45,892 nucleotides of DNA from a virus (taxonomy: Duplodnaviria > Heunggongvirae > Uroviricota > Caudoviricetes), in the IMG/VR virus record IMGVR_UViG_648276653_000019; one strand, written 5' to 3'. Of the stretch, positions 32,801-35,800 are shown piece after piece. Position 1 is the stretch's first letter. The number at the start of each line of letters is the position of its first letter. Position numbers: made by a program.

Positions 32801-35800
32801 ACCACTACAGCGCGTTCTTGTGCTTTCCAGAAGCAACCCGATCACGCTAACGCCAAAGTCGGCAATACGGTTTCCTGGGTCTTTGACTGCGGCAAGATTG
32901 ATCAGCTGCTTGGGGAGTTTTAACGGATGGAATTTGAAATCAAAGGCGTTAAATACCGCACCGCAAAGCTCGATGTTTTCCAGCAGTTGAAGGTTAGCCG
33001 TAAACTGCTGCCGGTGCTGGCCGGGCTGGTTTCTGACTTTGGTACGCTGAAATCCATGATGGTCAGAGACAGCGAGGGCAAGCTGGTTTTCGGTGAGAAA
33101 AGGGCATTCGACGCTCTGGATATCGTCCTGCCGAAGATTGCCGATACGCTGGCAGCTCTGCCTGAAGAGGACGTTAACGCGGTGATTCATCCGTGCCTGG
33201 GCGTTGTTATGCGCCAGCATGAAAAAGGGTGGGTGAAAATTTTCGATCAGGGCGCGCTGATGTTCGACGATATCGACCTGTTCACGATGCTGCAGTTGGT
33301 GGCGCGGGTGGTCGCCGACAGCCTGGGAAATTTTTTGAAAGAACTCCCCGGCAGCGGGACGCCTACCCAGCCATAGGTCCTGTCCTGGAATCCATGCCAG
33401 AAGGTGAGGATTTCCTGATGCGCCCGGTGGATGCCGGGCTTATCCCTTACACCGCCCTGAAAGATGGATCAGTAGACCTGGCTGATATTGCCCGTATGAA
33501 TGACTGGCTGGACCTGAAAGCCGATAACGAAAACCGTATAGCGAAATGGAGAGAGGCTAATGAACGCTGAAACGCTCAAGGACTTTCTGATCTCGCTTGG
33601 GTTCAAAGTTGATGAGGCTGGCGCCAGAAAATTCGATGCCGTCGTTGCCGGGACAACGCTTAAAGCGATTGAACTGGGCGTCAAAGTTGAGGCGGCGGCA
33701 CTTTCCGTCGTTGCATTCACCGCGAAAATTGCCAGCGGTCTCGACGACCTGTACTGGGCCTCTCAGCGCACAGGCGCGACGGTGGAGGGCATTAAGCAGA
33801 TTGGGTATGCGGTTAGTCAGGTTGGCGGCAGTGTCGACGGGGCCCGCGGCTCTCTCGAAAATCTTGCCAGGTTCATGCGTAACAATCCCGGCGCTGAGGG
33901 TTTCCTGAACCGGCTGGGGGTTCAAACGCGTGATGCCAGCGGTAACATGCGGGATATGGCGACGATCTTTACCGGCGTCGGCCAGCGTCTTAGCAGTATG
34001 CCGTATTACCGCGCGAACCAGTACGCTCAGATGCTGGGTCTGGATGAAAACACCCTGATGGCAATGCGTCGCGGTATCGGCCAGTTTAGTGGCGAATACA
34101 CCGCGATGGCGAAGGCGATCGGCTATAACGCTGATGTGGCCGCCGTCAGCTCCAATAAATTCATGACCTCGCTGCGCTCCTTTGGGCTGATGGCAGGCAT
34201 GGCGCGGGATAAAATCGGCTCCAGTCTCGCTGATGGACTTGCTGGCTCTCTGGACAGGCTGCGTCGCCAGATCCTGGAAAACTTCCCGAAAATTGAAGGC
34301 GCTATAACCGGTACCGTGAAAGGCATTCTCTGGGCTGGCGAGATGGTAGGCAGGGTAATTTACCGCCTTATTCAGCTGGGTCAGAGTATCAGCGACTGGT
34401 GGGACTCTCTTGATAAGCAGTCGCAGCAGCTGATCGAACCAATTGGAGCGCTAACCGCAGCGTGGTGGATGCTCAACCGCGCTATGCTCGCATCGCCGAT
34501 TACGTGGGTTCTCGGTCTTGCCGCTGCCATAGCTTTGCTATGGGAGGATTACCAGACCTGGAAGGAGGGCGGTAAGAGCCTCATTGACTGGGGTAAATGG
34601 AAGCCTGAAGTAGACGCAGCACTGAAGATGGTCGGTGACCTGAAACAGACTGTCCTCGATCTCGGAAAAGCGCTGGCAAAGCTGCTCAATATCGACCCTA
34701 AATCCTGGTCTTTGAAATGGGATTTCAGCAACTTCATTACCCAGATGGGTGAGTTTAGCAAGATGCTGAGTATGATCGGCGACCTGCTTAACGCTATCAA
34801 GGACGGTCGCTGGTCTGATGCTGCAAGTATTGGCAGGGCTCTTCTCAAACAAGGCAGTAACCAGCCTGATGCGCTGCCAGGCGTTTCTGACAGTGCCAAT
34901 AGCGCAGCTGACTGGATAAAGGATAAGACAGGATTTGACCCGCGCAGCATAGGCCGTTTCTTCCGTAGCGAGGGGAATACGCTTGCAGATCGCAACAATA
35001 ACCCCGGCAATATTCGGCCCGTAGGCGGTGGTGGCTTTCGTACGTTTGGTTCTGCGCTGGAAGGCTGGGAGGCCATGAAAAACCAGCTCATGCGGTACTT
35101 TACTGGTAAAACGACCGGGCGCCGCCTGCAGACTATCATGGATATCGTCAGCACCTGGGCGCCTGCGGCCGATAACAACGATCCTGCCAAATATGCCCGT
35201 GATGTTGCTGGCTGGATGGGTGTATCGCCGACGGCAGCATTAAACCTGTCCGACCCCAATACGATGGCTATGCTCATGCAGTCTATGGCCCGCAAAGAGG
35301 GATATTCGAACTGGAATAGCCCACTTGCCCATCAGGCTGCTGGAGCGCAGGTGAATCAGCAAAACACCTACAACATCTATGGCGGTAATGCTCAGGAGAT
35401 TGGGCAGGAAGTCAGTCGCCGCCAGCTTGATGCTAATGCCAGGGTGCTGAGAAATAACCAAACTGGAGCAGGATGATGGATATTCTTTCTACTCTCTTTC
35501 AGCAGCAGAGCAGGCGGATCGGGCTGATAGTCCCCAGTGTTGTTATTTCGGAAAAGCACGATGACTCTCTTGAAATAACCGAGCATCCCGTAGAGGTTGG
35601 CGCAGCAATTTCCGACCATGCATTTCGACGCCCTTCGGAAGTGGTAATGCAGGTCGGTTTCGCTGGTGGCGGTTCCTTGCTTGACTTTGTAGATACGTCT
35701 TCTCTTGGGCTGAGCGTAGGTATTGGCCCGAAGGAGACGTATCAGGAACTGTTAAATCTGCAGAGCAGCAGGGTGCCTTTAGATGTGGTGACCGGTAAGC

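What the first reader, a model, noticed from the sequence alone, without database searches (positions are those of the whole stretch)
33320..33570. Programmed -1 ribosomal frameshift in the tail assembly chaperone gene
The slippery heptamer A-AAT-TTT (33328-33334) lies near the end of the 149-aa chaperone ORF. The -1 frame is open from there to 33570 (overlapping the tape measure start) and has no start of its own. This is the conserved G/GT arrangement of tailed phages, here in a contractile-tail module.
Basis: partly seen in the sequence, partly recalled or inferred. Interest (0 to 1): 0.4.

Follow-up and report, generated by a model that had tools for sequence, protein, structure and literature searches.

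The report
Tail chaperone gene -1 frameshift site
This is an ordinary, well-supported example of the ribosomal frameshift that tailed phages use to make a short and a long tail-assembly chaperone from one gene, in an E. coli prophage where public annotation wrongly splits the long form into two genes.

Summary
The 149-aa ORF 32927..33376 is a tail assembly chaperone (Pfam Phage_TAC_15). It lies between the sheath/tube genes and the tape measure gene. The -1 frame runs to 33570 and overlaps the tape measure ATG (33560) by 11 nt.

Two details need correcting. The -1 frame also has ATGs of its own (33394, 33418), and RefSeq annotates 33418..33570 as a separate "DUF6889 family protein".

Comparison with 141 distinct homologous sequences supports the frameshift. 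The T6 run is invariant and synonymous codon choice is frozen (TTT 141/141, TTG 137, AAT 137, GGA 136). Codon periodicity switches to the -1 frame at the site. The 75-82-codon extension stays open. In 60/141 the 33418 ATG is absent, and 41/141 have no start codon at all. Seven distant phages (28-36% identity) keep the arrangement. No conserved downstream RNA structure was found.

Which heptamer is used remains open; the products differ at residue 137 (F or L). Two relatives (phages Mulock and Magia) already carry the frameshift annotation. This is a new member of a known kind, of low interest.

The parts
31325..32470 (+). Tail sheath gene (context: contractile-tail module)
   Evidence: Pfam DUF3383 E=2e-103; PHROG phrog_205 'tail sheath' E=1.5e-128
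32480..32923 (+). Tail tube-type virion protein gene, immediately upstream of the chaperone
   Evidence: Pfam KPP10_Orf10 (DUF3277 in RefSeq) E=5e-63; phrog_280
32927..33376 (+). Tail assembly chaperone, short ('G'-like) product: 149 aa, 16.5 kDa, 0-frame stop TAG at 33374-33376
33325..33337 (+).
   Evidence: Sequence. These are the only in-frame heptamers in the ORF. In 141 distinct homologous sequences the registers are kept in 124, 136 and 141 respectively, and the T6 run is invariant
33331..33336 (+). Invariant T6 core of the slip site
   Evidence: 141/141. Phe codon TTT 141/141, against TTC 93/TTT 47 at another conserved Phe. The following Leu is TTG in 137 and never CTN. Asn is AAT in 137 and never AAC
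33337..33570 (+). -1 frame extension ('T'-like domain): 77 codons plus TGA if the shift is on T_TTT_TTG; read from 33334 if the shift has Phe in the A site. The full fusion is 214 aa, 24.1 kDa
   Evidence: Pfam DUF6889 E=2.9e-20; phrog_4364 E=2e-27. Open for 75-82 codons in 141/141 distinct homologues with a full-length extension (three further loci have a truncated or cut-off extension), and overlaps the tape measure start by 11 nt in 112 of them. Codon periodicity is in the -1 frame
33418..33570 (+). ORF that RefSeq/PGAP annotates as a separate 50-aa 'DUF6889 family protein' (rival reading); SD-like GGTGAGG at 33403-33409
   Evidence: The ATG is absent in 60/141 homologues. Database DUF6889 entries have arbitrary lengths of mostly 42-64 aa
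33560..35476 (+). Tape measure protein gene (638 aa); its start overlaps the end of the -1 extension
   Evidence: phrog_2276 'tail length tape measure protein' E=1.5e-244; weak Pfam PhageMin_Tail hit

Best explanation
The chaperone gene makes two proteins from one start codon.

Most ribosomes translate 32927..33376 and release the 149-aa chaperone. A minority slip back one nucleotide on the U-rich tract G_GGA_AAU_UUU_UUG (33325-33337). They then continue in the -1 frame to the TGA at 33568-33570. This yields a 214-aa, 24-kDa fusion whose last ~55 residues form the small helical DUF6889 domain.

The slip most likely happens in one or both of two ways:
- tRNA-Phe on UUU (33332-33334) sits in the A site and re-pairs cognately with UUU at 33331-33333. 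P-site tRNA-Asn moves from AAU to AAA. This is the A_AAU_UUU heptamer.
- One codon later, on U_UUU_UUG.

The two routes give ...SLGNF-F-ERTP... or ...SLGNF-L-ERTP.... No downstream RNA structure appears to be needed.

By analogy with lambda gpG/gpGT (inferred, not shown here), the shared N-terminal part coats the tape measure protein. The rarer C-terminal domain recruits the tube protein, so the frameshift rate sets the ratio of the two forms needed for tail assembly.

Shown here: the anatomy, the conservation and the coding signature. Inferred: that the shift occurs, its rate, which codon slips, and the binding partners.
For: Anatomy:
- The frames and the motif are as described.
- Gene order is sheath, tube, TAC, -1 extension, tape measure.
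- The extension is a conserved domain (Pfam DUF6889 E=2.9e-20).

Conservation in 160 related loci, 141 distinct sequences, with TAC identity to this one of 45-99%:
- T6 is invariant. Synonymous choice is frozen at GGA (136), AAT (137), TTT (141) and TTG (137), whereas nearby conserved residues use 2-4 codons freely.
- The extension is open for 75-82 codons in all 141. It overlaps the tape measure start by 11 nt in 112 of them.
- In 25 sequences a -1-frame stop lies 6-18 nt before the end of the tract. In the two nearest cases (6 nt; L072 and L081, as also in L082, whose truncated extension keeps it out of the 141) it abuts the T6 run, which pins the shift to the T-run.

Coding signature:
- Entropy peaks at frame-0 third positions upstream: 1.21 against 0.44 and 0.63.
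- It peaks at -1-frame third positions downstream, including 33377-33417: 1.49 against 0.71 and 0.52.

Distant homologues: seven phages of Burkholderia, Bordetella, Acinetobacter, Ralstonia, Providencia and Edwardsiella keep a -1 extension ending at the tape measure start. At the homologous codon they carry C_CCT_TTT, A_AAT_TTT, G_GGT_TTT/T_TTT_TTC, T_TTT_TTT, G_GAT_TTT or G_GGA_AAT.

Literature and prior annotation:
- A_AAU_UUU falls in the H_HH.U_UU.Y class, which is listed among the most efficient motifs in E. coli. The tetramer U_UU.U is shift-prone (PMC4066793).
- P2 E/E+E' shifts at TTTTTTG without a downstream structure (PMC3091744).
- Phages Mulock and Magia carry a 'tape measure chaperone frameshift product' join.
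- A T7 variant (L163) encodes the same fusion in frame.
Against: - No protein, reporter or ribosome-profiling evidence exists for this gene or any homologue found here.
- No stimulatory element was found. Folding energies downstream are no better than shuffles (z -0.1 to -1.3). RNAalifold predicts 0 pairs across 35 diverse sequences. There is no Rfam hit.
- U_UUU_UUG is not in the high-efficiency class for E. coli.
- This particular sequence does have an ATG with an SD-like motif (33418) that could give independent expression as well.
- The homologous loci are related by descent, so the counts are not independent events.
- The peptide pattern VV[AG]DSLGNF used to fish loci biases towards conservation of the amino-acid motif, though not of codon choice.
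Confidence: 0.88

Rival explanations
1. DUF6889 is a separate small gene, as RefSeq annotates it. Ribosomes initiate, or re-initiate after the TAG at 33374, at ATG 33418 (or 33394) and make a free 50-58-aa protein. No frameshift is needed.
For: ATG 33418 lies 8 nt after GGTGAGG. PGAP calls this ORF in 50+ E. coli genomes. 81/141 homologues keep the ATG, and 55/141 have some ATG in this stretch preceded by an SD-like match of at least 4 nt.
Against: 60/141 homologues have Leu, Arg or Ala codons in place of the ATG. 41/141 have no ATG/GTG/TTG anywhere between the slip site and the domain. The 27 codons upstream of 33418 evolve as -1-frame coding sequence, and the peptide RTP(R/Y)QRD...LP(D/G)GE(D/S) is conserved. 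The SD-like bases are dictated by the conserved Gly-Glu-Asp residues. Database ORFs of this family have inconsistent starts, mostly 42-64 aa. This rival does not explain the frozen synonymous sites at 33326-33337.
Confidence: 0.05
2. The long form arises by transcriptional slippage. RNA polymerase adds one extra U on the T6 run, giving a minority of mRNAs in which the chaperone and DUF6889 are in frame.
For: The invariant element is a homopolymer run. A one-T insertion gives exactly the fusion, as in the T7 variant L163. No ribosomal stimulator was found.
Against: From general knowledge, bacterial RNA polymerase slippage becomes appreciable only at runs of about 8-9 or more; six is short. The run is almost never lengthened (T7 in 1 of 141). 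Several distant homologues have only T4 (CCT TTT ATC, AAT TTT ATT, GAT TTT ATG) and Bordetella has no T run, yet they keep a heptamer-type motif in the correct register. The frozen GGA codon (A at 33328) matters for tRNA re-pairing, not for polymerase slippage.
Confidence: 0.05
3. The motif and the open -1 frame are coincidental, and the extension is not expressed.
For: A single in-frame heptamer in the 51-codon permissive window is expected by chance with P of about 0.13-0.18.
Against: A conserved Pfam/PHROG domain lies in the -1 frame. The frame stays open and the slip tract invariant across 141 distinct sequences and in distant phages.
Confidence: 0.01

Closest known systems
Bacteriophage lambda gpG / gpGT (programmed -1 frameshift in the tail assembly chaperone; Levin 1993, Xu 2004/2013/2014, as summarised in PMC5009743)
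   Same: Gene placed just before the tape measure gene. [quoted passage not shown] The extension ends at the tape measure gene. The presumed role is setting a fixed ratio of short to long chaperone.
   Different: Lambda is a siphovirus and uses G_GGA_AAG. No sequence similarity to lambda G or T was detected here (Pfam gave only Phage_TAC_15 and DUF6889). The roles of the two domains are inferred, not tested.
Bacteriophage P2 E / E+E' (contractile tail; -1 shift at TTTTTTG; PMC3091744 citing Christie 2002 and Xu 2004)
   Same: Contractile-tail phage of enterobacteria. The same heptamer T_TTT_TTG is present in the tract. No downstream RNA structure is present in either.
   Different: A different protein family: no Pfam P2 GpE hit. 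P2 E is 91 aa and E+E' is 142 aa, against 149 and 214 aa here. This tract carries two further overlapping heptamers upstream.
Klebsiella phage Mulock (MN098327) and Burkholderia phage Magia (MT701587): 'tape measure chaperone frameshift product'
   Same: True homologues (78% and about 44% aa identity). GenBank already joins the two frames. Mulock has the identical GGGAAATTTTTTG tract.
   Different: These are annotation only, with no experiment, and the Mulock announcement does not mention it. Magia uses C_CCT_TTT rather than the T6 tract.
Pakpunavirus/Vandenendeviridae TAC-N/TAC-NC locus (Pseudomonas phage Adele, PMC12846349)
   Same: Related virion module: the tube protein here hits KPP10_Orf10, named after Pseudomonas phage KPP10, which I take from general knowledge (not checked here) to be a pakpunavirus. 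That paper makes the same comparative argument for a -1 shift at a conserved poly-T (GTTTTT) site. The downstream ORF is likewise routinely mis-annotated as a hypothetical protein.
   Different: Homology between that chaperone and this one was not tested here. The motif is shorter.

Membership tests
G/GT-type tail assembly chaperone with programmed -1 frameshift (Xu et al. 2004) | Gene lies between the major tail (tube) gene and the tape measure gene | tested here: met
   Order is tube 32480..32923, TAC 32927..33376, tape measure 33560..35476
G/GT-type tail assembly chaperone with programmed -1 frameshift (Xu et al. 2004) | A second ORF overlaps the 3' end of the first in the -1 frame and lacks a conserved start of its own | tested here: met
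   The -1 frame is open 33223..33570. This copy has ATGs at 33394 and 33418, but 60/141 homologues lack the latter and 41/141 have no start codon at all
G/GT-type tail assembly chaperone with programmed -1 frameshift (Xu et al. 2004) | Slippery X_XXY_YYZ sequence in the overlap, conserved among relatives | tested here: met
   Three overlapping heptamers at 33325-33337. T_TTT_TTN is kept in 141/141, A_AAT_TTT in 136/141 and G_GGA_AAT in 124/141. Synonymous sites are frozen. Distant homologues keep a motif at the same codon
G/GT-type tail assembly chaperone with programmed -1 frameshift (Xu et al. 2004) | The extension is a real, selected protein sequence | tested here: met
   Pfam DUF6889 E=2.9e-20, phrog_4364. 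Codon periodicity switches to the -1 frame. The DUF6889 part of the homologue P0002 is modelled as helices with pLDDT above 90
G/GT-type tail assembly chaperone with programmed -1 frameshift (Xu et al. 2004) | Two proteins with a common N-terminus are made at a fixed low ratio; both are needed for tail assembly and absent from virions | not testable with these tools
   Needs western blot or mass spectrometry, and genetics
Tail assembly chaperone fold (e.g. HK97 gp10-type, PDB 2OB9) | Structural similarity of the short product to solved chaperones | tested here: inconclusive
   [not shown]
Structure-stimulated -1 PRF (dnaX/IS911/viral type) | Downstream hairpin or pseudoknot, or an upstream SD-like stimulator | tested here: not met
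   Folding z-scores are -0.1 to -1.3. RNAalifold finds 0 conserved pairs in 35 sequences. No Rfam match. No SD-like sequence 6-17 nt upstream by inspection. Pseudoknots were not explicitly searched for
P2 E/E+E' family | Sequence homology to P2 gpE | tested here: not met
   The Pfam scan returned only Phage_TAC_15. The resemblance is limited to the heptamer TTTTTTG and the tail type

The most novel reading that the evidence does not exclude
The site may be a structure-independent 'multi-chance' slippery tract. Both A_AAU_UUU and U_UUU_UUG would be used and selected, since GGA and TTG are each frozen at synonymous positions. This would compensate for the missing RNA stimulator. It would yield two fusion isoforms differing at residue 137 (Phe or Leu). 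As a corollary, the whole Pfam family DUF6889, often labelled 'NTP pyrophosphohydrolase' in databases, would be the frameshift-encoded domain of this chaperone family rather than a gene.
Probability: 0.35. Interest if true: 0.3.

Novelty: new member of a known kind. Interest (0 to 1): 0.2.

Why it matters
The main value is for annotation. RefSeq splits this locus into a chaperone and a separate 'DUF6889 family protein' in at least 50 complete E. coli genomes, and similarly in Klebsiella, Pantoea, Erwinia and others. Older records call the fragment an 'NTP pyrophosphohydrolase'. Reading it as the frameshift extension gives DUF6889 a function and removes a spurious gene.

It also adds a well-sampled case of a phage -1 frameshift site with no detectable RNA stimulator. 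The site has overlapping heptamers that could be dissected with simple synonymous mutations. It does not change what is known about recoding or tail assembly.

Tried and rejected
- Downstream stimulatory structure. Four windows (43-136 nt) were folded, and none beat the shuffles. RNAalifold on 35 diverse homologues gave no consensus pair. Rfam gave no hit at E<=1 in 33200-33650.
- Solved-structure relatives of the fusion by sequence: none at E<=1.
- AF2 of the natural in-frame fusion P0002 with a mixed alignment. The N-terminal domain came out poor (mean pLDDT 65.5), and only the DUF6889 helices were confident. The model was not used for a fold search.
- Natural in-frame fusions as independent support. 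Only three database proteins carry both Pfam domains. P0002 is explained by a T7 run that may be a homopolymer error. P0004 and P0031 look like other frame-disrupted or truncated calls. This is weak evidence.
- The G_GGA_AAT heptamer as the selected site. Its first G is no more conserved than third positions of other Leu codons, and it is lost in 17/141. It is the only motif in the Bordetella phage, however.
- Literature. There are no papers on DUF6889. The Mulock genome announcement does not discuss the frameshift. Vladimirov et al. 2022 on T4-like chaperones is not held.
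Full report
**1. The observation**

The sequence at 33320-33340 reads AGC CTG GGA AAT TTT TTG AAA in the frame of the ORF 32927..33376.
- The ORF encodes 149 aa.
- The -1 frame is open from 33223 to the TGA at 33568-33570.
- It overlaps by 11 nt the ATG (33560) of a 638-aa ORF.

These points are correct. Two points are not.

First, the heptamer is the middle of a 13-nt tract, G_GGA_AAT_TTT_TTG (33325-33337). The tract holds three overlapping in-frame heptamers, and they are the only in-frame X_XXY_YYZ motifs in the ORF.

Second, the -1 frame does have start codons: ATG 33394, and ATG 33418 lying 8 nt after GGTGAGG. RefSeq annotates 33418..33570 as a separate 50-aa 'DUF6889 family protein' in E. 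coli genomes that carry this prophage at 99.9% identity.

By chance alone, one in-frame heptamer in the 51-codon window where both frames are open has P of about 0.13-0.18. The motif by itself proves little.

**2. What the genes are**

| Coordinates | Assignment | Evidence |
|---|---|---|
| 31325..32470 | tail sheath | DUF3383, phrog_205 |
| 32480..32923 | tube-type protein | KPP10_Orf10 |
| 32927..33376 | tail assembly chaperone | Phage_TAC_15 E=1.4e-32; phrog_1688 |
| 33560..35476 | tape measure protein | phrog_2276 E=1.5e-244 |
| 35473 onwards | baseplate proteins | Dit-like, Pam3 gp18-like and E217 gp41-like hits |

- The translated -1 extension hits Pfam DUF6889 (E=2.9e-20, above the curated cut-off) and phrog_4364.
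- An AF2 model of the chaperone is of moderate quality (pLDDT 68.6). Its last helix ends at the slip site and the 0-frame tail is disordered.
- In a model of a homologous in-frame fusion, the junction and linker are disordered. The DUF6889 part is a confident helical unit.

**3. Comparative test**

I collected 160 related loci from about 80 bacterial species and from viral contigs. Their chaperone identity to this one is 45-99%. They comprise 141 distinct nucleotide sequences with a full-length extension; three further loci have a truncated or cut-off extension.

Slip-site conservation:
- The T6 run is invariant (141/141).
- The Phe codon is TTT in 141/141, whereas another conserved Phe uses TTC 93/TTT 47.
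- The following Leu is TTG in 137 and never CTN, whereas other conserved Leu codons are mostly CTG.
- Asn is AAT in 137 and never AAC.
- Gly is GGA in 136.
- Two and three codons upstream, Asp is GAC 83/GAT 58, and Ser uses four codons.

Heptamer registers:
- T_TTT_TTN is kept in 141.
- A_AAT_TTT is kept in 136.
- G_GGA_AAT is kept in 124.

Permissive window:
- In 25 sequences a -1-frame stop lies only 6-18 nt before the end of the tract.
- In L072 and L081 (and in L082, which has a truncated extension) a TGA or TAA directly abuts the T6 run.
- The only shift window common to all homologues therefore starts at the T-run.

Extension:
- It is open for 75-82 codons in all 141.
- It overlaps the tape measure start by 11 nt in 112.

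Codon periodicity:

| Region | Entropy at frame-0 third positions | Entropy at -1-frame third positions |
|---|---|---|
| Upstream of the site | 1.21 (others 0.44, 0.63) | – |
| Overlap 33338-33373 | 0.88 | 1.11 |
| 33377-33417 | – | 1.49 (others 0.71, 0.52) |

- The most variable codon position switches frame at the site.
- The stretch 33377-33417 lies before the ATG that RefSeq uses, yet it evolves as -1-frame coding sequence.
- The peptide directly after the slip, (E/A)RTP(R/Y)QRD, is conserved.

**4. Rivals**

*Separate gene or re-initiation.* The ATG at 33418 is replaced by Leu, Arg or Ala codons in 60/141. In 41/141 there is no ATG, GTG or TTG between the slip site and the domain. Database DUF6889 ORFs have arbitrary lengths, mostly 42-64 aa, which is typical of gene callers picking whatever start is available.

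*Transcriptional slippage.* A T6 run is short for bacterial RNA polymerase slippage (general knowledge). Several distant homologues have only T4, or no T run at all, yet keep a heptamer in register. The frozen GGA codon makes sense only for tRNA re-pairing. This rival cannot be excluded from sequence alone.

*Chance.* This is excluded by the conservation.

**5. Which heptamer**

Seven distant phages (28-36% chaperone identity, or a partial match of about 44% for Magia) all keep a -1 extension with a DUF6889-like domain ending at the tape measure start. At the homologous Gly-x-Phe codons they carry the following:

| Phage | Motif |
|---|---|
| Burkholderia Magia, BgManors32 | C_CCT_TTT |
| Acinetobacter A785.1 | G_GGA_AAT and A_AAT_TTT |
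| Edwardsiella ZHS | G_GAT_TTT |
| Ralstonia PY059YO380 | G_GGT_TTT and T_TTT_TTC |
| Providencia PSTCR3 | T_TTT_TTT |
| Bordetella IFTN9 | G_GGA_AAT only |

- Systematic measurements in E. coli put H_HH.U_UU.Y among the most efficient heptamers, and A_AAU_UUU fits that class by the stated rule. The same study ranks the tetramer U_UU.U third among tetramers. [quoted passage not shown] U_UUU_UUG is not in that class (PMC4066793).
- On the other side, T_TTT_TTG is the only full X_XXY_YYZ heptamer present in all close homologues. The exclusive use of TTG/TTA rather than CTN for the next Leu is unexplained unless that heptamer also matters. P2 uses TTTTTTG for E/E+E' (PMC3091744).

I conclude that the tract probably offers two (perhaps three) chances to slip. 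The products are 214 aa and differ only at residue 137:
- ...SLGNFFERTP... at 24.10 kDa
- ...SLGNFLERTP... at 24.06 kDa

**6. Stimulators**

None was found.
- Folding energies are within the range of shuffles.
- RNAalifold finds no consensus pair in 35 diverse sequences.
- There is no Rfam hit.
- There is no SD-like element at the usual 6-17 nt upstream, by inspection.
- This matches P2.

**7. Mechanism and function**

Shown: the anatomy, the conservation and the coding signature.

Inferred from lambda gpG/gpGT (PMC5009743):
- The N-terminal part binds the tape measure protein.
- The frameshift-only domain recruits the tube protein.
- The slip frequency sets the ratio, about 30:1 in lambda.
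- Neither product ends up in virions.

**8. Novelty**

The phenomenon is textbook and is known in contractile-tail phages.
- Two homologues, phages Mulock and Magia, already carry 'tape measure chaperone frameshift product' joins in GenBank.
- A recent paper makes the same comparative argument for a poly-T site in phages with a related virion module (PMC12846349).
- No experiment or paper addresses this chaperone family or DUF6889.

The useful outcome is a corrected annotation. DUF6889, often labelled 'NTP pyrophosphohydrolase', is the frameshift-encoded C-terminal domain of Phage_TAC_15 chaperones.

**Verdict:** This is a new member of a known kind, and interest is low (0.2).

Noticed in passing
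window 3436..3525 (-): Rfam sRNA-Xcc1 (RF02221) match at 65.4 bits, above the gathering score of 53. It is the only Rfam family hit in the window.
   Followed up: no
window 33560..35476 (+), residues ~464-603: The tape measure protein carries an internal or C-terminal muralytic-like region. It hits PHROG 'endolysin' and 'tail injection transglycosylase' families. Relatives are annotated as SLT-domain proteins.
   Followed up: no
public protein databases (P0121-P0240): DUF6889 entries are tiny ORFs, mostly 42-64 aa, with inconsistent starts. Many are named 'NTP pyrophosphohydrolase'. This looks like a propagated misannotation of the frameshift extension.
   Followed up: partly
L163:1902-1908: A Logan-assembled relative has T7 instead of T6. 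This makes an in-frame 213-aa chaperone+DUF6889 fusion (P0002). It may be a genuine mutant or a homopolymer sequencing error.
   Followed up: partly
L034 and L082 (-1 extension): Two homologous prophages have truncated -1 extensions (37 and 9 codons), probably from decay. L082 (Arsenophonus) still keeps T_TTT_TTT.
   Followed up: no
P0233 (E. coli, 108 aa): A database protein carries both Pam3_gp18 (baseplate plug) and DUF6889 Pfam hits, which is an odd architecture. It may be a chimeric or frame-disrupted gene call.
   Followed up: no
window 32480-33900 vs OZ035745.1: The best phage-database match (95% identity) is labelled Wanchaivirus, a genus in subfamily Hendrixvirinae whose listed species are HK106 and mEp234; to my knowledge these are lambdoid siphoviruses. 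Yet this is a contractile-tail module. This suggests a mosaic genome or a taxonomic mislabel. The Mulock abstract describes that phage as a temperate myophage with lambda-like functions.
   Followed up: no
[not shown]
   Followed up: no
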